Virus record (IMG/VR): IMGVR_UViG_3300035438_001058
Span: 21,209-85,208 of that record
From: a virus
Strand: one strand, 5' to 3'
DNA: 64,000 nt
Positions 23,971-37,548 of this stretch are shown here, piece by piece (the stretch's first letter is position 1; every line of letters starts with the position of its first letter). A model generated the notes under the pieces. It searched no databases. It was given only the letters and a program-made list of their open reading frames with translations, and was not told where the DNA came from. The position numbers and the translations under genes were made by a program.

Positions 23971-24001
23971 TTGCTTTTTCTCTTTTAATGTCGTATCTTT
24001 G
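23971..24001 (+). promoter_or_regulatory. Bacteroidota housekeeping-sigma promoter
   Basis: TTG-N20-TAtcTTTG matches the -33/-7 (TAnnTTTG) consensus. Confidence 0.75.
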
Positions 24002-24269: not shown

Positions 24270-24300
24270 TTGCATTTCGCATTTTAATGTTGTATCTTTG
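24270..24300 (+). promoter_or_regulatory. Second near-identical Bacteroidota promoter
   Basis: TTG-N20-TAtcTTTG sharing flanks with the first copy. Confidence 0.75.
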
Positions 24301-26974: not shown

Positions 26975-27256
26975 ATGCATACAGTAAAAAACTTAGACAA
27001 TTTAGATGTTCAGTCAGACGTTAAAATGAGTCGTCTTCAAGCTAACGAACAGATAATTAATCTTATCACTGATTATATGAGAACTTATACGGACCAAAGG
27101 TTTGGGCAGATACTATATAATTTAGGTGTAGCTACACATTCCGTGTATCATACAATGCCGCAAGAAGGTGAAAGAGCTCAAGTTGGTTACAGAGATATAT
27201 TCTTTGAAGAATCTGCTGAGACATTAAAGAAATTAACAATAAAAGATGGGGATTAA
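26975..27256 (+). CDS. Hypothetical protein
   Basis: DQRFGQILYNLG, DIFFEES. Confidence 0.65.
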   Translation: MHTVKNLDNLDVQSDVKMSRLQANEQIINLITDYMRTYTDQRFGQILYNLGVATHSVYHTMPQEGERAQVGYRDIFFEESAETLKKLTIKDGD

Positions 27257-27269
27257 TTTCCCCTACATT

Positions 27270-27549
27270 GGGGGTGCCAGGTATTGATTGCACTCATAGG
27301 TTTGGTATTACTAGCAAGCAGTCTAAAGACTATAAATTTAAATAATCGACAATAATACTAATGACTTTGGTATCGGACTTCCGTCCTTTTCCACAGAAGC
27401 AGTTGCTCCTTCTGTTACTCAAGAGCAGCCAGTTTACCAGTACGCATAAGTTTACCACACTAATAGACTATAATATAGGTGTACAGAAGCTTGTAATTCT
27501 AGAATATTAAACGAGTCGTAAGACAGCGGTTCGAATCCGCTCACCTCCA
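27270..27549 (+). ncRNA. ssrA: Phage tmRNA
   Basis: Acceptor GGGGGTG/CACCTCC-A with G3:U, T arm AGCGG-TTCGAAT-CCGCT, internal tag frame 27348-27449. Confidence 0.85.
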
Positions 27550-27564
27550 CTAAAATTAATTATT

Positions 27565-27834: not shown

Positions 27835-27891
27835 ATCGCTAACAGTCGTTAGGTCTCGCCCTCCATGTCGTAAGATGTGAGGGGGCAATTC

Positions 27892-27963
27892 GGGGATATG
27901 GGGTAATCGGTAACCGGGAAGTCTTCAAAACTTTAGTTGTCTGTTCGAGTCAGACTGTCCTCG
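27892..27963 (+). tRNA. Opal suppressor tRNA, anticodon UCA (probably Trp)
   Basis: Acceptor GGGGATA/TGTCCTC, G73; anticodon arm GAAGT-CT TCA AA-ACTTT (TCA 27925-27927); T arm GTCTG-TTCGAGT-CAGAC; short variable loop. Confidence 0.92.
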
Positions 27964-27980
27964 CCCACAAAATTTTTATT

Positions 27981-28490: not shown

Positions 28491-28736
28491 ATGACTATAA
28501 AGGTTAATATTTCTTTCGAACTTTGGCCATATCAACAGTCTTACTCAGTAGAAATACCAGAAGATAAGTTTAAGGAAATGGATAAGTATGTGGATTCTAT
28601 AACATCTAATTTAAAGATGTCATTATTATCCCATGTACGTGTCCATCACCCTAATTTATGGTATAAATATTCTCCTTTAGAAGATCAAATACTGGCAACT
28701 TTAAAAATAGAAAATCACACACACAAAATTAAATAA
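28491..28736 (+). CDS. Hypothetical protein
   Basis: TAATG coupled to groEL. Confidence 0.55.
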   Translation: MTIKVNISFELWPYQQSYSVEIPEDKFKEMDKYVDSITSNLKMSLLSHVRVHHPNLWYKYSPLEDQILATLKIENHTHKIK

Positions 28737-30337
28737 TGACAAAGAATATTCATTTAGAAAAAGAAACACGAGATAAAATGCTGGAAGGTGTTTTAACTTT
28801 GGCACACGCAGTAGGATCTACACTAGGACCAATGGGGTCAAACGTAGTAATTGAGACTCCTTACGGAGCTACCACAGTTACTAAGGATGGAGTCACTGTA
28901 GCTAAACATATTGATTTAGATGATGCTGTGCAAAATTTAGGAGCGCAGATATTAAAACAAGCTGCTTCAAGAACAGCTACTCTTGCTGGCGATGGTACAA
29001 CAACTGCTACTGTAATAGCTGCGTCTTTAGTACAGTCTGCGCATAAATTAATTACTGCGGGTGTGAAGCCTATTGATATTAAAAGAAGGTTAGAAATTCT
29101 CTTATTAGAAGCTCTGAATAAGATTCGGATTCAAGCTAAGAGTGTTGACCTTAATAGGATTAAAGAGATCGCCACTATCTCAGCAAATAATGATGAGGAA
29201 ATGGGGGCTTTAATTCAAGACGCTTACAACCATGTTGGCCCCAATGGAATGATCACTTTAGAGGAATCTAAGACAGGTCTAACTCATTTGGTTATGGAAG
29301 AAGGAGTTTCTATTGACAAAGGATTTGTATCTCCTTATTTTATCACTGATTCTGCAAAAGGAGAATGTATTCTAGAGAATCCATTTATCTTTATTACTGA
29401 TTCTAAAGTTAGATATACTCAAGATATAGTACCTATATTGGAAATTGCTGCTTCTAAATCAAGGCCCCTTCTTATTATAGGAGACGAAGTAGATGCTCAA
29501 GCTCTTCAGTTGCTCGTACTAAATAAGATGCGCGGGACAATACAAGTATGTGCTATAAATGCCCCTTCTTTTGGGGATAACAGAACAGCGATATTAGAAG
29601 ATATTGCTGCCCTAACATCTACTACTATTATAACCGCTAAAGCTGGCACTAGGTTAGAGGATACTCCAGAAAGAGCATTAGGAAATGCTCAAAAAGTTAT
29701 CATATCAAAGTCGAAGACTATATTAGTAGGACCTAAGAATAACTTAGAGGCTATTGAGTCTAGAGCTGAAGAAATTCGTAACTCTATGGAATTGGAGCAA
29801 GATCTTTATTTAAAGAATAGACTTCAAAAAAGATTGGCTGATCTTACTGCTAAAGTAGCTGTGCTTCATGTTGGGGGAGCTACTGAAACTGAATTAAAAG
29901 AACGCAAAGATCGTGTAGATGATGCTCTAAGGGCTACTGCTTGTGCCATACAAAAAGGTTACCTTATTGGCGGCGGTGTAGCTCTAGCTCGTGTGTCTTC
30001 TTTCATAGAGATAAAAGATGCTTTAATAGATCCTATTTTTATAAACGCACTAACATCCCCTCTAAAATTAATAGCTTCAAATGCAGGGCAAACAGGAGAA
30101 GTAGTTTTAGCTAAAGTTTTATCTTCAGAAGATCTTGATATTGGTTTTAACGCTCGCACGCTCAAGTATTCTAATTTATTAGAGGATGGTGTAATAGATC
30201 CCGCGTTAGTAGTTGAGCAAGCACTCTCAAACGCAGTATCAGCGGCTTCTATGATATTACTTTCTGCTACGGCAATCACAAATAAAGATAGAAAACCTCC
30301 TTTTAATCCAGGTAATATGGAAGATTATGCTGCATAA
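28736..30337 (+). CDS. groEL: Chaperonin GroEL
   Basis: TLGPMG, VTKDGVTVAK, AGDGTTTATV, GGATETELKERKDRVDDAL, GVIDP. Confidence 0.97.
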   Translation: MTKNIHLEKETRDKMLEGVLTLAHAVGSTLGPMGSNVVIETPYGATTVTKDGVTVAKHIDLDDAVQNLGAQILKQAASRTATLAGDGTTTATVIAASLVQSAHKLITAGVKPIDIKRRLEILLLEALNKIRIQAKSVDLNRIKEIATISANNDEEMGALIQDAYNHVGPNGMITLEESKTGLTHLVMEEGVSIDKGFVSPYFITDSAKGECILENPFIFITDSKVRYTQDIVPILEIAASKSRPLLIIGDEVDAQALQLLVLNKMRGTIQVCAINAPSFGDNRTAILEDIAALTSTTIITAKAGTRLEDTPERALGNAQKVIISKSKTILVGPKNNLEAIESRAEEIRNSMELEQDLYLKNRLQKRLADLTAKVAVLHVGGATETELKERKDRVDDALRATACAIQKGYLIGGGVALARVSSFIEIKDALIDPIFINALTSPLKLIASNAGQTGEVVLAKVLSSEDLDIGFNARTLKYSNLLEDGVIDPALVVEQALSNAVSAASMILLSATAITNKDRKPPFNPGNMEDYAA

Positions 30338-32570
30338 TGCACAAAATTTCTTAGTCAAAGATGTGGAAATTCTCCATCCTTTGTCTCAAGATTATCGTTC
30401 TTATTGAAGAGAACACAAAAGAAGATGTATTGAAGGTTATTGGGTGGGTGGCATTTGGATGCCGCCTGCCCTTTACTATTATGTAAACTTTCATACTATA
30501 AAACTTAATAAAAGTATTCACACTAATACTAAGTCGTACGGTAGACCTTTGTTACGGGATATTGAGTGGGAATTTTTCTATAATTATTCTGAAGCGAGAG
30601 GTTTCTCAGGTTTTAAGAACGATGATAAGTATTCTTGTCATAGAATACTTTTGAATACTGAAGCTACAGACGATTACTTAATTAAATATTACCCAGAGAC
30701 TGTAAATTCTAAGGGGGAAAGAAAGACTTACGTGCCAGCTAGGACGTATATGCGTCAAGTACATCCTTTTGAATCTTCTCCTTTGTTTCAGAACGAGATT
30801 AGGAATTTTATGATGTTAGGATCTCGTGGATTTGGTAAATCTTTCTCTGTATCAGGACTCATAGCTCATAATTTCTTATTTGATGGAGCTACTGAATACA
30901 GCGAGGAAAAGATAATGAATCCGGACGCTGCTGAGATATTAGTAGGGGCGGCCAAATCTGATAGATCCGCAGATATTCTTAAAAAAGTGAAGGATGCATT
31001 TGATTTTTTACCCGGAAAACAGATGGTTAATAATAGGACACATCCATCACCATTCTCTAAACGATTTAGCGGATCTTGAGCAGTTAATTCCACTATTGCA
31101 GCAGAATATAAACGTAAAACAGAAGGTCAATGAACCACAGTAGGTTCCAGATCTAATATAAAGCACAGATCTTTCAACTCAGATGCTTTTGCAGCTCAAG
31201 GAACCAGGCCCATTTTACTAGTTTTGGAGGAAATAGGTATGTTTCCTAATTTAAAGGAAGTACACGCTAACACAGTGGATAACTTAACTGACGGTTACCG
31301 TAAGACTGGTATGGCTATGATGTTAGGAACAGGTGGTGACATGGAACAAGGTACTTTAGATGCTTCTGAAATGTTTTACGAGCCTGATAAATATGATATA
31401 TTGTCTTTTTCTAATGACTGAGAGAGTTCTGGTAACATAGGATACTTTGTTCCAGCGTATTTAGCGCTCAATCAATTTAAAGATGCGCAAGGAAATACCG
31501 ACATAGCGGCTGCTAAGAAGGAGATTGATTCTGTTAGGCGCAAGAAACGTGGAAACTCAGGATCTTCAGATGCGTTGAATAAGGAAATGCAGTATAGACC
31601 TATTGTTCCATCTGAAATGTTCTTAACTAAGACAGCTAACATCTTTCCTGCCGCTGAAATTAGGAGAAGGCTTTCAGAAGTGCAGTCATTTGATCTGTAT
31701 AACCAGTCAGAGAAGAAAGTTAATCTATATTTCGACCCAAAATCTCAGTTTAATGGTGTATCTTACAATATAAATGACTCTTTAAACGCCATTAGCTCGT
31801 TCCCGTACAAGGGAGATGATAGAGAAGGGGCTGTTGTTTTATACGAATTACCTAAGTTTATAGAAGACAAGGTCCCGTCAGATGCCTATATTATAGGATG
31901 TGACCCATTTAGAGATGATACGAATACAGGAGAATCTTTGGCAGCTATATATGTTATGAAAACCTCTAAATACATATCTAGTATAGGGTATGATGAGATA
32001 GTAGCCTCGTATATTGGTAGACCATACTTCGGTAAAAATGAGGTAAACGAAACTCTATATAAATTGTCCTTATTTTATGGGGGTGCTAAGATTTATTTTG
32101 AGAATGCAGTAGGAAATGTAAAAGATTACTTTGAGAAAATCAGAAGACTAGACTTATTAGCTAGGCAACCAGTCACAGTTTTTAATAAGAAAGCTTCTTA
32201 TGATTCATCCCCGCAAGTTATTTATGGGTACCCAATGTCTAATGATAAAGTAAAATGAGAAGCGATACAATACTTACGCTCTTGGTTATTGCAAGAACGT
32301 GAAGAAAATAAAAGAAATCTGGATTTAATTATAGATCCAGGCCTACTTCAAGAGTTATTGGCCTTTAATATGAGTATAAATACTGATAGAGTAATGTCTT
32401 TAGTAGGTTGTATAATAGGATTAGAAGAAATAAACAATATCTCGAAAAGAAAGCAAGAGTTTTTGTCTGAAGATAGCGCACTTCAGAAGGACATTAATAG
32501 GTTAATTATAAATAATAAACGTTTATTTCAAGATGTTAAATTTCCCAAAGCAACGTCTCTCCTATTCTAA
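30327..32570 (+). CDS. terL: Terminase large subunit, 747 aa, five TGA=Trp (30405, 31077, 31131, 31419, 32256)
   Basis: Four track fragments share one frame broken only by TGA. Walker A GSRGFGKS, Walker B LVLEEIG, nuclease IIGCDP; directly upstream of the portal. Confidence 0.93.
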
Positions 32571-34956
32571 AAAATCAGAAGATGATTTTAGATGGGCGAG
32601 GAAAGTTATGGAATCTTTACTTCAATTTTCTCCAGCACAAAAGAATATAGCTAGTGATTACACTTCAGAGTACGGAAGGAAATTATCTAACTATAGGTTG
32701 TACAATAATCAACTAGATCAGAAAGATTTTGAGAGAGAATGTAATCCATTAGGATTAGAAGTAGGGCAATTCCAGGATTCAATACAACCTTATAATAAGA
32801 CATATAATAAGATTCAGGTTTTATTAGGTGATGAGTTAAAACGTCCGTTTAATTACAGAGCGGTTTTAGTCAACACTGAGGGCGTGCAGTCTAAGTTACA
32901 GAAGAGAGATTCTTTATATAGAAACTATATATACTCTCAGTTACAAGAAACAGTGAAATCTATAGGTGCCGCTTATGTTCCAGAGTTAGTCGATACAATG
33001 ACAGAGCATATACTACCTCCAGAGGACATTGAAAAATACATGAAGTACTCCTATCGAGAGCGAAGAGAAATCTTAGCTGAGAATATACTCAACTATTTAA
33101 CGAGAAAATTATCCTTAAAAGATAAGAAAAACGATGCTTTCAAGCACGCGTTAATAGCTGGAGAGGAAATCATTTATGTAGGTACTAATAATGGTGAGCC
33201 TCACCTAGAAGTCATTAATCCCCTAGGAGTGTTTTACCACAAGTCTCCAGAAACAAAGTGGATCCAAGATTCATTATATGCTGGATTTAGGACTTATATG
33301 ACGGTAGGAGAGGTTATGGATAGATACGGTAAGTATCTAACCAAGGCTGAGATTACTAAGCTGGACAATACCACTACAGCAGGAGGAGCTTTACCAGACC
33401 ATAATATGGGCAGTACGCAGTCGTACGGCATACAAGATCAAGATAGGGTTTTATCTAAGATGTATAATTATGACTCAGGATCTTACGGAGATTCTCACCA
33501 CGAGGATATATTAGTACAGCACGTGGAATGGAAGTCCCAGAAAAAAGTAGGCTTTCTAACCATGATAAATGAGTATGGGGAAGAAGAAGAGCAGATGATA
33601 TCTGAAGATTTCAAAGTCCCTAATAATGCTATAAAGCAGGTGGAAGTAAAAGACTTTGGTCAAAGATGTGATTATTATTATTGGGAAGAGAATGGTATAA
33701 AATTCAAATTAGAATGGGACTGGATTCCAGAAGTTTGGACTGGTACAAAGATCAATAACGATATTTATTGCATGATAGGACCTAAAGATCAACAATTCAG
33801 ACCTTTAGATAATCCCAAAGAAGTGTCCCTGGGGTATCACGGAGTAATCTATAATGCTATGAACGCTACCTCTATCTCATTGATGGATAGAATGAAGCCT
33901 TACCAGTATCTGTACTTTATTGTTATGCATAAGCTTAAAAAAGCTATAGCACAAGACCAAGGTAAAGTATTTCACTTCGATGTTACAATGATTGATCCTA
34001 AAATAGGATTGGATAAAACCATGTACTATTTAAAGGAGATGAATATAGACTTTTTTAATCCATTAGCTAATGGAGATCAGCCTGGGCAAAATCAAAGGGG
34101 TAAAGTATCGCACTCTACCGATATGTCTAATATGGCCAATATCAATAACTATATTAATCTACTGCAATCCATTGATCAGCAAATATCAGACGTAGCAGGT
34201 ATTAATAGACAACGAGAAGGACAAATTTCTCCTTCAGAAGCGGTGTCTAATACCCAATCAAACCTTCAAATGTCGGCTTTGATTACTGAGATTTATTTTC
34301 AAGCTCACTCCAAACTATGGGAGAAATGTTTGAATTCAATGATAGCTGTAACCCAACAAGCTTGGAAAGGTAAAAGTATAGCAAAGCAATACATATTAGA
34401 TGATCAATCAATCGCTACACTAGAGATGAATAATGATGATATTATGGATTGTGAGCTAGGAGTTTTTGTTACGGATTCAGGTAAGGAGTACGAAATATTC
34501 AATGCTCTTATGGGCAAAGCGGAGTCACTTGTACAAGCACAAAAAGCTTCTTTTTCTGATATGATCCGATTATACGAGTCTAACTCAGTAGCAGAATTAA
34601 AGGCTGGTATAGAAAGCTCTGAAGAACTAAGTCAGAGACGACAGCAAGAAGCACAACAAGCTCAAATAGAAGCAGCTCAACAAGCTCAACAAGCAGAACA
34701 TGATTTCCAAATGGAGAAATTGGCTATAGAACAAGAGCATGAGTTAATGATAGCTCAGATTGAATCATTTAAATTCCAGAAAGACCAGGATGCAAATGAT
34801 AATGGGTTACCAGATCAATTTGAGATTTATAAGTTACGTCAAGACGCTGGTTTTAAAGATCGTAAACTATCCCTAGAAGAAAAAAAGTTAGAATTCAATA
34901 AGCAGAAAAGCGAAAAAGAGTTACAAATAAAGCGTTCTCAAAACAATAAAAAATAA
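32533..34956 (+). CDS. Portal protein (crAss-like)
   Basis: 807 aa after terL; FPKQRL start, SLMDRMKPYQYLY, Q-rich coiled C-terminus. Confidence 0.85.
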   Translation: MLNFPKQRLSYSKKSEDDFRWARKVMESLLQFSPAQKNIASDYTSEYGRKLSNYRLYNNQLDQKDFERECNPLGLEVGQFQDSIQPYNKTYNKIQVLLGDELKRPFNYRAVLVNTEGVQSKLQKRDSLYRNYIYSQLQETVKSIGAAYVPELVDTMTEHILPPEDIEKYMKYSYRERREILAENILNYLTRKLSLKDKKNDAFKHALIAGEEIIYVGTNNGEPHLEVINPLGVFYHKSPETKWIQDSLYAGFRTYMTVGEVMDRYGKYLTKAEITKLDNTTTAGGALPDHNMGSTQSYGIQDQDRVLSKMYNYDSGSYGDSHHEDILVQHVEWKSQKKVGFLTMINEYGEEEEQMISEDFKVPNNAIKQVEVKDFGQRCDYYYWEENGIKFKLEWDWIPEVWTGTKINNDIYCMIGPKDQQFRPLDNPKEVSLGYHGVIYNAMNATSISLMDRMKPYQYLYFIVMHKLKKAIAQDQGKVFHFDVTMIDPKIGLDKTMYYLKEMNIDFFNPLANGDQPGQNQRGKVSHSTDMSNMANINNYINLLQSIDQQISDVAGINRQREGQISPSEAVSNTQSNLQMSALITEIYFQAHSKLWEKCLNSMIAVTQQAWKGKSIAKQYILDDQSIATLEMNNDDIMDCELGVFVTDSGKEYEIFNALMGKAESLVQAQKASFSDMIRLYESNSVAELKAGIESSEELSQRRQQEAQQAQIEAAQQAQQAEHDFQMEKLAIEQEHELMIAQIESFKFQKDQDANDNGLPDQFEIYKLRQDAGFKDRKLSLEEKKLEFNKQKSEKELQIKRSQNNKK

Positions 34957-35023: not shown

Positions 35024-36067
35024 ATGATAAATACGAATGATGACTTTTTAGAGCAAATGTTTTCTGATCCTTCAACTACTCCATCAATGCTAAATGATGA
35101 TAAAGGTTTTGAAGATTCCCCAGAAATAACTTCTGATGAAACAGAAGAACCAGAAGACGCTCCGGAAGCTCCTAGAGAAGTTTTAGAAGACAATGACCCA
35201 GTTGTAGAGAATTACGTAAAGTTTCTACAAGAGAATGATCTTATAGAGATACCAGAAGATTACGATTTTCAAGGTACTCCAGATCAAATTCAGGAAGTAT
35301 TTGAGTACACTAAAAAAACTAGGTCTGATAAAGCTATACAATCAGTTTTTCAGCAACTTCCAGACGACTTCAAACCACTCCTAGAATACGCGCTTAGAGG
35401 CGGGACTTCTCTGCAGGATTATATGGATACTTTTTCTGATGACTTATCTAACTACGGTTTAGACACTGAAGAAGACCAAAAAGAAATTCTATTTAAATAC
35501 TACAAAGAAACCTCTCCTTATCCAGACGATAAAATTGAGCGGTTGATTTCTCGTTTTAATGATGAGGAAGAACTACGTCTGGAAGCAGCTGATGCTTATC
35601 AAGAGTTGCTGCAAATACGCGAAGAAAAAAAGAGAGAGCTCATCGTGGAAGCACAGGCTCAAAGAGAAGCGTATAGAGCAGATCTTGAACAAAAGACTAT
35701 ATCTTTAAACAGAGCTATAGAAGAAACAACTGCTATTCATCCACAAAGAAAAAACAAAGTACGGGCTTTCTTTTTTGATCCCATACAAACAGCAAACTCT
35801 GTTACTACAGGATTTAATGCTACGATAGCTTCTATCTTATCAAATCCAGAACATCAGGCACAACTTGCTGATATACTATTAGATTATAATCATAATAATG
35901 GTTTTTCCTCTGATAGAATAGAACGACGTGTTAAAACTAAGGCAACTCAAGATTTTAAGACGTTATTGAAAACTAAACTAGATCCAAAACAAGCTCAAAG
36001 ATCTTCAACATCTAGAGCACCTCAATCAACTTCCTTTAATTGGGAAGACTATTCACAATCTTTATAA
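35024..36067 (+). CDS. Acidic scaffold-like protein
   Basis: Position between portal and capsid gene; acidic N-terminus. Confidence 0.65.
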   Translation: MINTNDDFLEQMFSDPSTTPSMLNDDKGFEDSPEITSDETEEPEDAPEAPREVLEDNDPVVENYVKFLQENDLIEIPEDYDFQGTPDQIQEVFEYTKKTRSDKAIQSVFQQLPDDFKPLLEYALRGGTSLQDYMDTFSDDLSNYGLDTEEDQKEILFKYYKETSPYPDDKIERLISRFNDEEELRLEAADAYQELLQIREEKKRELIVEAQAQREAYRADLEQKTISLNRAIEETTAIHPQRKNKVRAFFFDPIQTANSVTTGFNATIASILSNPEHQAQLADILLDYNHNNGFSSDRIERRVKTKATQDFKTLLKTKLDPKQAQRSSTSRAPQSTSFNWEDYSQSL

Positions 36068-36072
36068 TTTAC

Positions 36073-37548
36073 ATGGCTACTCCTCAATCTTCTTTAATAA
36101 TCAAACGTTACGACGCTTTTGGCGGTAACTTTATTGATTCTGATTACCTAGCTGCTTCTTACGAGAGCGGCAAACCTACATACCTGCCAGGTATGATGAT
36201 GCAGACATATTCGTCACAGTCACGCTTTATGAATCTGAAACCCCTCTTGAATCTTGTTGGCGTTAGTTCCAACGGAGGAAAAGAGATTGAATCTGAAATT
36301 GTTCGTTGGTACCTACGTGGCGCAGAAGATCGCGATGCTCGTTCTATTGAAGCTGTAGATATTACCAACACTACACCAGGTCTTAACGGTACTACTTTCC
36401 GCATTAAATTGGATTTGGATTATTTCCACTTCCCAGATATCCTTACTCCAGAAGATAACGATTTCCCTATTCAAGTAGTGGAAGGAGCAATTCCAGACGG
36501 TACAGGTTACATTTATGTTTGTAAACTTGTTACAGACAACCCACAGCTTTTTGTAGACCCTAATCTTTTACAGGCTGGTCGCACTTTCACTAAAGTATCT
36601 ACCGCTGTGCCTTCTGAGTACAACCAATGGTTCGGCACTCAGCAGTATCCAAACGTATTCTTGCTTGAAGCACAACTTGGTTCTTTCGGACAATCTTTGC
36701 ACATCACTGACAAAGCTTGGAGAGACGGTGGTCGTCTTGGAGTTACTTTCCAGCACACTAACGCTGCAGGCGCTACTTCAGAGGTAAACAAATTTATCCC
36801 TTACGCAGAGAACGTAATGGTAGATGAGTTCTACAAAACTATCGAATGGGCAGCTGTATACGGTAAGAAATCTACCATGTCAGGTCCAGATAAATATTGG
36901 ATCAAAACAGGTCACGGTCTTCGTGAGCAACTCAGAGATGGTTGGACTCAGCAATACACTGGAGCTCTTTCTGTAACACTTCTTCAAGATTATCTGATGT
37001 CCGTATTCTTTGGACGTGCTGATGAGACTAATCGTGATGTAAAAGTAATGACCGGAACTCTCGGTTCAATCTTGTTCCACAATGCTTTGGCAGCTGTGGC
37101 TAACGGATTCCTTACCGTTGATACACACTATGTACGCGATATCAAATCTCCTACATCTACTCCTTGGCTTGCTTATGGCGCAGAGTTCCGTCGCTATACT
37201 GGTCCATCAGGTATCTCCGTAGATTTGATGTTGAATCCAATGTACGATAGTATGCAGTATTGCAAACAATTCCACCCACAGTACCCAGATATGCCGATTG
37301 ATTCCGCTCGTATGACATTCCTTGATTTTGGAGGAATGGGCGTAGACAAGAACATTGAGCTTCTGAAAGTTAAGGACTCTTTCTATTACGGCTACAAGCC
37401 TGGTATGTTGTCCCCATCTGGCCCAATCAAAAATAACGGTATGTTTGGCGAATTAAAAGCTGGTTACGATGTAGCTATCCAAGGTTCTTTCGGTATTGTT
37501 ATGCGTGATGTAACCCGTGGTGGTGAACTTATCATGTCTGTAGAGTAA
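36073..37548 (+). CDS. Major capsid protein (crAss-like)
   Basis: About 490 aa, synteny, TGHGLREQL, distinct codon bias; start MATPQ. Confidence 0.85.
   Translation: MATPQSSLIIKRYDAFGGNFIDSDYLAASYESGKPTYLPGMMMQTYSSQSRFMNLKPLLNLVGVSSNGGKEIESEIVRWYLRGAEDRDARSIEAVDITNTTPGLNGTTFRIKLDLDYFHFPDILTPEDNDFPIQVVEGAIPDGTGYIYVCKLVTDNPQLFVDPNLLQAGRTFTKVSTAVPSEYNQWFGTQQYPNVFLLEAQLGSFGQSLHITDKAWRDGGRLGVTFQHTNAAGATSEVNKFIPYAENVMVDEFYKTIEWAAVYGKKSTMSGPDKYWIKTGHGLREQLRDGWTQQYTGALSVTLLQDYLMSVFFGRADETNRDVKVMTGTLGSILFHNALAAVANGFLTVDTHYVRDIKSPTSTPWLAYGAEFRRYTGPSGISVDLMLNPMYDSMQYCKQFHPQYPDMPIDSARMTFLDFGGMGVDKNIELLKVKDSFYYGYKPGMLSPSGPIKNNGMFGELKAGYDVAIQGSFGIVMRDVTRGGELIMSVE

What the first reader, a model, noticed from the sequence alone, without database searches (positions are those of the whole stretch)
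27270..27549. Compact phage tmRNA with an unusually long, non-canonical tag, next to the suppressor tRNA
Seen: 280-nt RNA with G3:U alanyl acceptor and T arm. The probable tag frame 27348-27449 reads (A)DNNTNDFGIGLPSFSTEAVAPSVTQEQPVYQYA*, 33 codons, leaving little room for PK2-PK4. Established: bacterial tmRNAs are about 360 nt with tags near 10 aa, usually ending in AA. Inference: it may rescue ribosomes stalled at ambiguous UGA during the switch while redirecting or avoiding proteolysis. The resume codon is inferred.
Basis: partly seen in the sequence, partly recalled or inferred. Interest (0 to 1): 0.8.

Follow-up and report, generated by a model that had tools for sequence, protein, structure and literature searches.

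The report
Miniature phage tmRNA with long tag
A freshwater crAss-like phage carries its own shrunken ribosome-rescue RNA (tmRNA) whose unusually long 33-residue tag is conserved by selection in related phages, so the phage seems to put its own label on unfinished proteins in place of the host's usual "degrade me" tag.

Summary
Rfam RF00023 scores 54.6 bits (cut-off 47).

The long tag frame is real. Homologous RNAs sit at the same place in five further lineages of this phage clade. They are 239-332 nt long with tags of 30-37 codons. ARAGORN and Rfam's cut-off both miss three of them.

The frame has no start codon. It begins in the same sequence context as Bacteroidota bacterial tmRNAs. Indels are in whole codons, and dN/dS is 0.09-0.24. 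Stems covary and G3:U is invariant.

In the sample, bacteria of the probable host phylum have tmRNAs of 349-405 nt. Their tags are 8-10 residues ending in LAA or MAA.

The RNA belongs to a tmRNA lineage seen here only in phages. Its full-size members (389-413 nt, tags of 21-23 codons by my own reading) occur on contigs that share no detectable protein with this window. The compact form has lost PK2-PK4.

No phage SmpB was found.

The link to UGA recoding is loose. One relative with no in-frame TGA in four genes checked keeps the tmRNA. One recoded relative has lost it.

This is a new variant of a known kind. Nothing on expression or tagging was tested.

The parts
27270..27552 (+). tmRNA gene. 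The mature RNA probably spans 27270-27549, with CCA added after transcription.
   Evidence: ARAGORN. Rfam RF00023 at 54.6 bits against a cut-off of 47. Homologues in L007, L004, L008, L117 and L122.
27270..27276 (+). 5' strand of the acceptor stem (GGGGGUG). G3 pairs with U, which is the alanine identity pair.
   Evidence: All 7 pairs are kept in 5 homologues. G3:U is invariant. Positions 5 and 6 show compensatory changes.
27288..27319 (+). 5' strand of the long helix P2 (segments P2a-d).
   Evidence: It pairs with 27489-27521. Compensatory changes occur at pairs 38-236, 40-234, 42-233, 44-231 and 31-243 across W, L007 and L004.
27320..27340 (+). PK1 region. It holds a conserved 4-bp hairpin (AGUC/GACU) and a possible 3-bp second stem.
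   Evidence: The hairpin is kept in 3 homologues, with one A-U to U-A swap. The second stem is not supported in L007. L117 has a clear H-type pseudoknot at this place (read from the sequence).
27342..27347 (+). Context upstream of the resume codon (AUAAUC). U at -5 and A at -4 are kept in five of the six phage homologues.
   Evidence: The context is nearly identical to bacterial tmRNAs with the tag DNNYSYRLAA (AUAAUU|GACAAYAAU).
27348..27449 (+). Tag reading frame: 33 codons (DNNTNDFGIGLPSFSTEAVAPSVTQEQPVYQYA) followed by UAA.
   Evidence: The frame has no ATG, GTG or TTG, and an in-frame stop lies 3 codons upstream. dN/dS is 0.09-0.24 against L007 and L004. A strain in run X3 differs only in codon 9, ATC to TTG (Ile to Leu).
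27450..27488 (+). Short spacer with one bulged hairpin, standing where PK2-PK4 would be.
   Evidence: Only 39 nt lie between the stop and the 3' strand of P2. Full-size relatives L314-L318 have roughly 190-225 nt between the stop (by my reading of the frame) and the T arm.
27489..27521 (+). 3' strand of helix P2. It contains the most conserved block, AAGCUUGUAAUUC.
27525..27549 (+). T arm (AGCGG UUCGAAU CCGCU), 3' acceptor strand (CACCUCC) and discriminator A.
27248..27263 (+). Conserved hairpin (GGGGAUUAAUUUCCCC) 6 nt upstream of the tmRNA 5' end. It overlaps the stop codon of the upstream ORF.
   Evidence: It is present in W, L007 and L004. A different hairpin sits at the same place in L117 and L122. 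Its function is unknown.
27891..27967 (+). tRNA with anticodon UCA, which reads UGA.
   Evidence: ARAGORN. Rfam tRNA model at 52.8 bits.
24270..24300 (+). Bacteroidota-type promoter motif (TTG-N20-TATCTTTG). It is the probable start of the rightward transcript that would include the tmRNA. A second copy lies at 23971-24001.
   Evidence: Regex scan. No such motif lies directly upstream of the tmRNA. Co-transcription is inferred, not shown.
30444..32570 (+). Terminase large subunit gene with 4 in-frame TGA codons. This is context showing that the phage reads UGA as sense in some genes.
   Evidence: PHROG 6681, E = 3.5e-92 under code 4. TGA count.

Best explanation
This is a functional, miniaturised tmRNA encoded by a freshwater crAss-like phage whose host is probably a member of the Bacteroidota. 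It most likely works by ordinary trans-translation using host parts. It would be cut out of a long rightward transcript, given CCA, and charged with alanine through its G3:U pair and A73. It would then bind host SmpB and EF-Tu and enter ribosomes stuck at the end of stop-less mRNAs. Translation resumes at GAC (27348) and adds alanine plus 33 residues, ending at UAA. The appended peptide is acidic, rich in aromatic residues and free of Lys and Arg. Its start resembles host tags (DNN...). Its end is YQYA, not the host's LAA or MAA. The phage would therefore keep ribosomes recycling during infection while giving unfinished proteins a label of its own. Shown here: the RNA fold elements, their covariation, the resume context, and purifying selection on the tag peptide. 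Inferred: processing, charging, use of host SmpB, the fate of tagged proteins, and any link to UGA read-through.
For: Detection: ARAGORN and Rfam both identify a tmRNA.

Homologues: related RNAs lie at the syntenic site in L007, L004, L008, L117 and L122. These phages have portals 51-73% identical to the window's. The L117 type recurs with identical sequence in five samples.

Fold: acceptor stem, T arm and P2 covary. 14 of 27 RNAalifold pairs keep pairing after changes on both sides. P2b-d compensations are listed.

Tag frame: it stays open for 30-37 codons in all six lineages, and no other frame is open in all of them. Indels are in whole codons. dN/dS is 0.12, 0.24 and 0.09, with synonymous sites near saturation (pS 0.66-0.73). 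W, L007 and L004 have no start codon in the frame and an in-frame stop 3-5 codons upstream. A natural strain variant changes two bases of one codon to give Ile to Leu, the residue that L007 and L004 have there.

Resume context: it matches bacterial tmRNAs of the probable host phylum.

SmpB: none was found in the 85%-complete phage record or in five relatives' partial records.

Literature: PK2-PK4 are dispensable in vitro and plastid tmRNAs lack them. [quoted passage not shown] ClpX and ClpA read the ALAA end (PMC3985003).
Against: There are no expression data. No RNA run holding this DNA was listed, so transcription, processing and charging are unshown. PK1 is weak in this copy, with a second stem of only 3 A-U pairs and no covariation support. 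L007 and L004 have non-canonical T loops (CGCAACU, UGCAAU), and L004 is not seen by Rfam at all. The dN/dS values rest on only 33-36 codons. Overlapping RNA-structure constraints could distort them. What the tag does after it is attached is pure inference.
Confidence: 0.75

Rival explanations
1. Programmed tagging. The tmRNA is not mainly a clean-up device. It would deliver a functional 34-residue C-terminal module to particular proteins. Candidates are products of stop-less phage mRNAs, or host proteins whose UGA stops are read through by the neighbouring UCA tRNA. The tag would change their fate (inactivation, sorting or stabilisation) rather than simply marking them for ClpXP.
For: The whole length of the peptide is under purifying selection, not only its end. 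Conserved blocks are DNN, F-LELP, APSV-QEQ and Y-YA. The host-type LAA or MAA end is gone. The tmRNA and the UCA tRNA stay within about 1.1 kb in four lineages, although their order differs in L122. Suppressor tRNAs are known to raise trans-translation (Ueda 2002, as cited in PMC3985003).
Against: No target mRNA was identified. L008 keeps the tmRNA with no in-frame TGA in four genes checked and no UCA tRNA in its locus. L005 has the tRNA without the tmRNA. Full-size relatives lie in loci without a suppressor tRNA. Selection along the tag is explained equally well by a multipartite degron or adaptor site.
Confidence: 0.12
2. Decoy. The RNA mainly soaks up host SmpB, AlaRS or EF-Tu to shut down host trans-translation, and the reading frame is not translated. 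This was proposed for the RNA of mycobacteriophage DS6A, which is little more than a tRNA-like domain.
For: PMC4131195 reports that a molecule made of the tRNA-like domain alone inhibits tmRNA strongly. The pseudoknot region here is heavily reduced. L005 carries only a tRNA-like minihelix at the syntenic place.
Against: An untranslated frame would not show dN/dS of 0.09-0.24, whole-codon indels, a resume context kept in most lineages, or stop codons that move only in frame.
Confidence: 0.07
3. A different, short tag frame is used, and the 33-codon frame is a by-product.
For: A frame of this length stays open by chance in about 14% of shuffles of this one sequence. ARAGORN chose a different frame in L122.
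Against: Only this frame is open in all the homologues, and it shows coding-type substitution. The Rfam alignment and ARAGORN place the resume codon at the same base. The bacterial resume context aligns to it.
Confidence: 0.03
4. It is not a phage gene. It would be a host ssrA gene at a prophage border, or the ssrA fragment that integrating elements carry in attP.
For: Phages often integrate into tmRNA genes and carry a short 3' piece of them (PMC3029335).
Against: The gene is complete, with a 5' acceptor strand, a tag frame and a 3' tRNA-like half. It lies between conserved phage genes (the up175 and GroEL homologues) in six lineages. It is unlike the 349-405 nt tmRNAs of the sampled bacteria.
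Confidence: 0.02

Closest known systems
Bacterial tmRNA (SsrA, Rfam RF00023) of Bacteroidota, especially the type with tag DNNYSYRLAA
   Same: Both have a 7-bp acceptor stem with G3:U and A73, a T arm, a long P2 helix, and a start-less internal frame. The resume context is nearly the same (AUAAU-Y|GACAAYAAU). The first tag residues are DNN. In several of these bacteria the acceptor stem GGGGGUG/CACCUCC is identical.
   Different: This RNA is 283 nt against 349-405 nt, and scores 54.6 against 105-198 Rfam bits. It has no PK2-PK4 and a weak PK1. The 5' half of the tRNA-like domain reads GCCAGGUAUUGAUUG where the bacteria have GGAUUCGACGGG-like sequence. The tag is 33 residues against 8-10 and ends YQYA, not LAA or MAA. 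The gene sits in a phage genome.
Phage-encoded tmRNAs already on record: mycobacteriophages of the Bxz1 group, Bacillus phage G, huge phages
   Same: Each is a complete tmRNA gene inside a phage genome (PMC4131195; PMC7162821). The phage G tmRNA is also short (308 bp) and has a non-LAA tag, AKLNITNNELQVA (PMC12484599).
   Different: Those are large or jumbo phages of Actinobacteria and Firmicutes, and huge phages can also carry SmpB. This one lies in a crAss-like phage whose 85-kb record is an estimated 85% of the genome, and no SmpB was found. Its tag is 2.5 times longer than phage G's. Selection on the tag was shown here by comparison. In my literature searches I found no paper reporting a tmRNA in crAss-like phages.
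Full-size phage tmRNAs L314, L315, L316 and L318 (IMG/VR contigs, found here)
   Same: They share the 5' signature GGGGGYGCCNGGUAUUGAUUG and the 3' block AAGCUUGUAA...AAGAC. By my reading of the frames, their tags are long (21-23 codons) and end in V-(T/A)-V-A or VTA.
   Different: They are 389-413 nt long and score 71.5-82 Rfam bits, so the pseudoknot-rich region is present. They lie in contigs with no protein match to this window, two of them in large tRNA islands. Their tags are shorter than those of the compact clade.
Mollicutes tmRNA with its extended tag
   Same: Both tags depart from the ALAA end that ClpX and ClpA read. [quoted passage not shown]
   Different: No sequence relationship was tested. 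The end here is YQYA, YAYA, VYA or QLV, not AFA. Whether the host lacks ClpXP, or which protease if any reads this tag, is unknown.
Reduced tmRNAs of plastids and endosymbionts
   Same: Pseudoknots are lost while the tRNA-like domain and the tag frame are kept (PMC3985003).
   Different: Those are cellular or organellar genes in reduced genomes. This one is a phage gene whose full-size sister forms are still present in other phages.

Membership tests
tmRNA (SsrA, Rfam RF00023) | The covariance model scores at or above Rfam's gathering score. | tested here: met
   54.6 bits against 47, with the full model matched. Relatives: L117 62.9; L122 45.7; L007 38.2; L008 22.6; L004 not reported.
tmRNA (SsrA, Rfam RF00023) | 7-bp acceptor stem with the G3:U70 pair and discriminator A73 (alanine identity). 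| tested here: met
   GGGGGUG/CACCUCC followed by A. G3:U is invariant in 5 homologues, with compensatory changes at positions 5 and 6.
tmRNA (SsrA, Rfam RF00023) | T arm with a 5-bp stem and a UUCRANY loop, plus a GG in the D-loop analogue. | tested here: met
   AGCGG-UUCGAAU-CCGCU and ..CCAGGUAUUGA... L007 and L004 have AG together with (C/U)GC instead, which may be a joint change.
tmRNA (SsrA, Rfam RF00023) | 3' CCA end. | tested here: inconclusive
   CCA is not encoded in the gene (ACUA) or in the compact-clade relatives. It would have to be added by the host CCA-adding enzyme.
tmRNA (SsrA, Rfam RF00023) | Long helix P2 joining the tRNA-like domain to the rest of the RNA. | tested here: met
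   Positions 19-50 pair with 220-252. Several pairs change on both sides across W, L007 and L004.
tmRNA (SsrA, Rfam RF00023) | Pseudoknot PK1 just upstream of the resume codon. | tested here: inconclusive
   The hairpin is conserved. The second stem has only 3 A-U pairs and is not kept in L007. L117 has a clear PK1. L008 has no room for one.
tmRNA (SsrA, Rfam RF00023) | Internal reading frame without a start codon, entered at a resume codon in a conserved upstream context and closed by a stop. | tested here: met
   dN/dS is 0.09-0.24.
tmRNA (SsrA, Rfam RF00023) | Pseudoknots PK2-PK4 downstream of the tag. They are usual but not universal. | tested here: not met
   39 nt lie between the stop and the 3' strand of P2. 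They are dispensable in vitro and absent from plastid tmRNAs (PMC3985003), so this lowers typicality, not membership.
tmRNA (SsrA, Rfam RF00023) | The tag ends in an ALAA-like degron. | tested here: not met
   The tag ends YQYA. ARAGORN reports 'Tag not identified'. Tags of the sampled bacteria end LAA or MAA in 34 of 35 cases.
tmRNA (SsrA, Rfam RF00023) | Works with SmpB. Alanylation and tagging activity. | not testable with these tools
   No Pfam PF01668 match in the phage record or in five relatives' partial records. Use of host SmpB is presumed.
Mollicutes-type extended-tag system | The tag terminates in AFA, and the host lacks ClpXP, ClpAP and Tsp. | tested here: not met
   The end is YQYA, not AFA. 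The host's proteases were not examined. The resemblance is one of kind only (PMC3985003).
ssrA fragment in the attP of an integrating element | Only a short 3' piece of the tmRNA gene, next to an integrase. | tested here: not met
   The gene is complete, with its 5' half and tag frame, and lies between phage genes in six lineages. Compare the 23-bp fragments described in PMC3029335.

The most novel reading that the evidence does not exclude
The tmRNA and the UGA-reading tRNA form one coupled device. The tRNA drives ribosomes through UGA stops of host and early mRNAs to the mRNA ends. The phage tmRNA then caps those products with a dedicated, selected 34-residue peptide. That peptide would be a phage-specific signal, not a ClpXP degron. 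It could, for example, route host proteins to inactivation or to a different protease, or mark products for a phage factor. Trans-translation would then serve as a programmed tool for rewriting proteins during the code switch.
Probability: 0.12. Interest if true: 0.85.

Novelty: new variant of a known kind. Interest (0 to 1): 0.6.

Why it matters
Phage tmRNAs have been listed for years, but nobody knows what they do.

This clade is a natural experiment. It holds one-piece tmRNAs stripped down to 239-332 nt, one of them with no room for PK1. Their tags are three to four times the usual length, have lost the end that ClpX reads, and are still held by strong selection.

This bears on four questions:
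- What the minimal working tmRNA is.
- Whether tags can carry signals other than "degrade by ClpXP".
- Why phages bring their own rescue RNA.
- How recoded phages handle read-through.

It also exposes an annotation gap. Three of the six compact homologues are missed by both ARAGORN and Rfam's cut-off. ARAGORN also misses the four full-size phage relatives. Surveys that rely on ARAGORN therefore undercount phage tmRNAs.

Tried and rejected
- **Metagenome pattern scan.** It returned 80 loci (the cap), and none was homologous by nhmmer. Real matches may have been cut off by the cap.
- **Relatives' contigs.** About 40 phage GroEL relatives on contigs of about 100 kb could therefore not be fetched.
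- **RNA evidence.** No RNA holder was listed among the sequencing runs. Only DNA contigs could be laid on the stretch.
- **GenBank phages.** A DNA search of the tmRNA region found no match.
- **L025.** This 276-nt element in a 470-kb contig has a tmRNA-like acceptor stem and T arm beside a tRNA island. Neither Rfam nor ARAGORN supports it, so it was dropped.
- **Weak Rfam hits in bacteria.** Of two low-scoring hits, G064 is a normal tmRNA cut by a contig end and G026 is a tRNA-Ala.
- **Promoter and terminator scan.** The sigma-70-type scan gave nothing above shuffles near the gene.
- **Second stem of PK1.** It is not supported by covariation.
- **L004 tRNA with an intron.** I asked whether L004's missing UCA tRNA is split by the group I intron at L004:3060-3251. 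No 3' tRNA half is visible, so this stays unresolved.
- **Single-protein GroEL scan of IMG/VR.** It found only distant GroELs.

Full report
**1. The observation**

ARAGORN finds two RNA genes in the window. One is a tmRNA at 27270-27550 (+) with tag DNNTNDFGIGLPSFSTEAVAPSVTQEQPVYQYA*. The other is a tRNA with anticodon UCA at 27891-27967. Rfam's tmRNA model RF00023 matches 27270-27552 from end to end at 54.6 bits against a cut-off of 47, E = 1.1e-18. It places the resume codon at the same GAC. The sequence shows GGGGGUG/CACCUCC with G3:U, discriminator A, and T arm AGCGG-UUCGAAU-CCGCU. CCA is not encoded.

**2. Context**

The window is part of an 85.2-kb IMG/VR virus record estimated to be 85% complete.
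- PHROG matches give GroEL (28736-30337), large terminase (30444-32570, readable only with TGA as sense), portal (32533-34956) and major head protein (36040-37548).
- The nearest portals in GenBank phage records are crAss-like phages, at about 30% identity.
- The nearest bacterial GroELs are from Saprospiraceae, Haliscomenobacter and Chitinophagaceae, at 46-47% identity.
- Bacteroidota-type promoter motifs (TTG...TAnnTTTG) stand at 23971-24001 and 24270-24300, at the head of the rightward arm. None lies just upstream of the tmRNA.
- The same DNA is held by lake-water, freshwater and one crustacean-associated metagenome, from 13 studies.

The element therefore lies in a freshwater crAss-like phage with a probable Bacteroidota host.

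**3. Homologues that the standard tools miss**

A portal search of IMG/VR gave seven close relatives. ARAGORN and Rfam at its gathering score found no tmRNA in them. Plain alignment did find homologous RNAs at the syntenic site:
- L007:2607-2938.
- L004:1705-1993.
- L008:5179-5417.

A scan with a GroEL alignment added L117:4151-4399, which ARAGORN calls and Rfam scores at 62.9 bits. It also added L122:5136-5461 at 45.7 bits. Under Rfam, L007 scores 38.2 bits, L008 scores 22.6 bits, and L004 is not reported. The L117 form recurs with identical sequence in five samples.

L005 (portal 64% identical to the window's) has no tmRNA at the site. It has a 91-codon ORF and a tRNA-like minihelix there instead.

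**4. The fold is under selection**

RNAalifold on five homologues keeps all seven acceptor pairs. G3:U is invariant, and positions 5 and 6 show compensatory changes. It also finds compensatory changes in P2a and the T arm. In all, 14 of 27 predicted pairs change on both sides and stay paired.

A structure I drew by hand for helix P2 holds across W, L007 and L004 with several two-sided changes. Examples are pair 38-236 (AU/GC/AU), pair 40-234 (UA/GC/GC) and pair 44-231 (AU/GC/GC).

The PK1 hairpin is conserved. Its putative second stem has only three A-U pairs and is not supported. L117 has a clear pseudoknot there. L008 has only 16 nt between P2 and its resume codon.

Only 39 nt separate the tag stop from the 3' strand of P2 in the window copy, so PK2-PK4 are absent.

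**5. The long tag frame is the real one**

- The frame is open for 33, 33, 36, 32, 30 and (less surely) 37 codons in W, L007, L004, L008, L117 and L122. No other frame is open in all of them.
- Each frame alone would stay open by chance in 8-18% of shuffles. The case rests on the comparison, not on any single copy.
- W, L007 and L004 have no ATG, GTG or TTG anywhere in the frame and an in-frame stop 3-5 codons upstream. Ordinary initiation cannot explain the conserved first residues.
- Length differences are whole codons. dN/dS is 0.12 (W-L007), 0.24 (W-L004) and 0.09 (L007-L004), with synonymous sites near saturation.
- In the crustacean-associated metagenome (run X3), the contig that spans the whole 421-nt stretch laid differs at two bases only. 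Both are in codon 9 (ATC to TTG), giving Ile to Leu. Leu is the residue that L007 and L004 have at that position.
- The bases before the resume codon (AUAAUC|GACAAUAAU) are almost those of bacterial tmRNAs with tag DNNYSYRLAA (AUAAUU|GACAAYAAU). L008's start, GGCAAUACUACU, resembles that of an Aquirufa tmRNA with tag GNTSYAMAA.
- None of the six tags ends at UGA or contains it.

**6. What the tag looks like**

The five secure tags contain no Lys or Arg. They have 4-7 Asp or Glu and 3-7 aromatic residues. Shared blocks are DNN at the start, F-LELP, APSV-QEQ, and Y-x-Y-A, VYA or QLV at the end.

In a sample of the probable host phylum, 97 of 101 genomes have a tmRNA of 349-405 nt. 34 of 35 ARAGORN tags are 8-10 residues long and end in LAA or MAA. 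ARAGORN's own tag library does not recognise the phage tag.

According to PMC3985003:
- ClpX and ClpA read the ALAA end.
[quoted passage not shown] It cites work on an extended tag co-evolving with Lon.
- The last three pseudoknots are dispensable in vitro.

**7. Origin**

A scan for the unusual 5' signature GGGGGYGCCNGGTATTGATT found four further phage tmRNAs (L314, L315, L316, L318). They are 389-413 nt long and score 71.5-82 Rfam bits. ARAGORN does not call them. By my own reading of the frames, their tags are 21-23 codons long and end in VAVA, VTVA or VTA.

Their loci share no protein with this window at E <= 1e-4, and two of them lie in large tRNA islands. None of the 35 bacterial tmRNAs inspected has this signature.

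The window's RNA therefore belongs to a tmRNA lineage seen here only in phages. That lineage probably derives from a Bacteroidota-type tmRNA. The crAss-like clade holds its deleted, compact form.

**8. Partners**

No SmpB (Pfam PF01668) was found in the phage record or in five relatives' partial records. Host SmpB, AlaRS, EF-Tu, RNase P and the CCA-adding enzyme must be assumed.

**9. The link to UGA recoding**

| Lineage | tmRNA | UCA tRNA in locus | In-frame TGA in TerL |
|---|---|---|---|
| W | yes | yes | 4 |
| L007 | yes | yes | 4 |
| L117 | yes | yes | 3 |
| L122 | yes | yes | 3 |
| L004 | yes | not found | 1 |
| L008 | yes | not found | 0 |
| L005 | no | yes | 1 |

In L122 the tRNA lies upstream of the tmRNA, not downstream. 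Some linkage has therefore survived rearrangement. Phage RNA genes cluster anyway, and all these lineages share ancestry.

Published work gives two reasons why such a link could matter:
- Suppressor tRNAs increase trans-translation (Ueda 2002, as cited in PMC3985003).
- In a recoded E. coli, host tmRNA tagging is what blocks phage growth (PMC6207430).

The association is suggestive but not required. The tmRNA occurs without detectable recoding, and recoding occurs without the tmRNA.

**10. What is known**

Complete tmRNA genes are on record for the Bxz1 group of mycobacteriophages and for Bacillus phage G (PMC4131195). The phage G tmRNA is 308 bp with tag AKLNITNNELQVA (PMC12484599). Huge phages have them too, sometimes with SmpB (PMC7162821).

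My full-text searches found no report of a tmRNA in crAss-like or recoded phages. Earlier notes of this scan mention suppressor tRNA plus tmRNA clusters in other phages. I did not test those.

**11. Verdict**

This is a genuine phage tmRNA of an unusual form. It is compact and lacks PK2-PK4. Its 33-codon tag is translated and selected, starts like a host tag and ends unlike one.

The most likely function is ribosome rescue with host factors, combined with a phage-chosen fate for the tagged products. A specific role in the UGA switch is possible but unproven.

No data on expression, charging or tagging exist. The mechanism beyond the sequence evidence is therefore inference.

Noticed in passing
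L005:3238-3300: The one relative without a tmRNA has a 63-nt tRNA-like minihelix at the syntenic spot. It has acceptor stem CCCGGUG/CACCGGG, T arm GUAGG-UUCGAGU-CCUAU, and ends in GCA. It has no G3:U and no anticodon arm. It lies just upstream of that phage's UCA tRNA.
   Followed up: no
L117:5223-5316 and L122:3970-4063: The UCA tRNAs of these relatives are 94 nt long, presumably with a long extra arm. They match Rfam's tRNA-Sec model weakly (36 bits; cut-off 47), unlike the 77-nt UCA tRNA in the window. UGA may be read as a different amino acid in those phages.
   Followed up: no
L004:3060-3251, L004:14678-14855, L025:1928-2126: Rfam finds group I introns: 50.5 bits (cut-off 50) in L004, about where the window has its UCA tRNA; 35.6 bits further on in L004; and 92.8 bits in L025. 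Whether the first one interrupts a tRNA gene could not be settled.
   Followed up: partly
L314:2664-3068, L315:6875-7285, L316:11755-12167 (-), L318:9043-9431 (-): Four full-size phage tmRNAs score 71.5-82 Rfam bits, yet ARAGORN does not call them. They share the window RNA's odd 5' signature. By my reading of the frames, their tags are 21-23 codons long.
   Followed up: partly
L025:1542-1817: A 276-nt stretch in a 470-kb viral contig has a tmRNA-like acceptor stem (G3:U) and T arm. It lies inside a tRNA island that includes a CUA (amber-reading) tRNA. Neither Rfam nor ARAGORN supports it as a tmRNA.
   Followed up: partly
L166:4555-4937 (-): ARAGORN calls a permuted (two-piece) tmRNA with tag ANDETFALAA in another GroEL-bearing viral contig.
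   Followed up: no
window 23971-24001 and 24270-24300: Two nearly identical Bacteroidota-type promoter motifs (TTGC.TTT...TTTTAATGT.GTATCTTTG) lie 300 nt apart where the leftward and rightward gene arms diverge.
   Followed up: no
window 27248-27263; also L007, L004, L117 and L122 upstream of their tmRNAs: A hairpin stands 5-6 nt before the tmRNA 5' end in five of six lineages. In the window it overlaps the stop codon of the upstream ORF. It may be a processing or termination signal.
   Followed up: no
L007:2607-2938 and L004:1705-1993: These two tmRNAs changed the D-loop GG to AG and the T-loop UUC to CGC or UGC together. This looks like a joint change of a tertiary contact. Their tags remain under strong selection (dN/dS 0.09).
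   Followed up: partly
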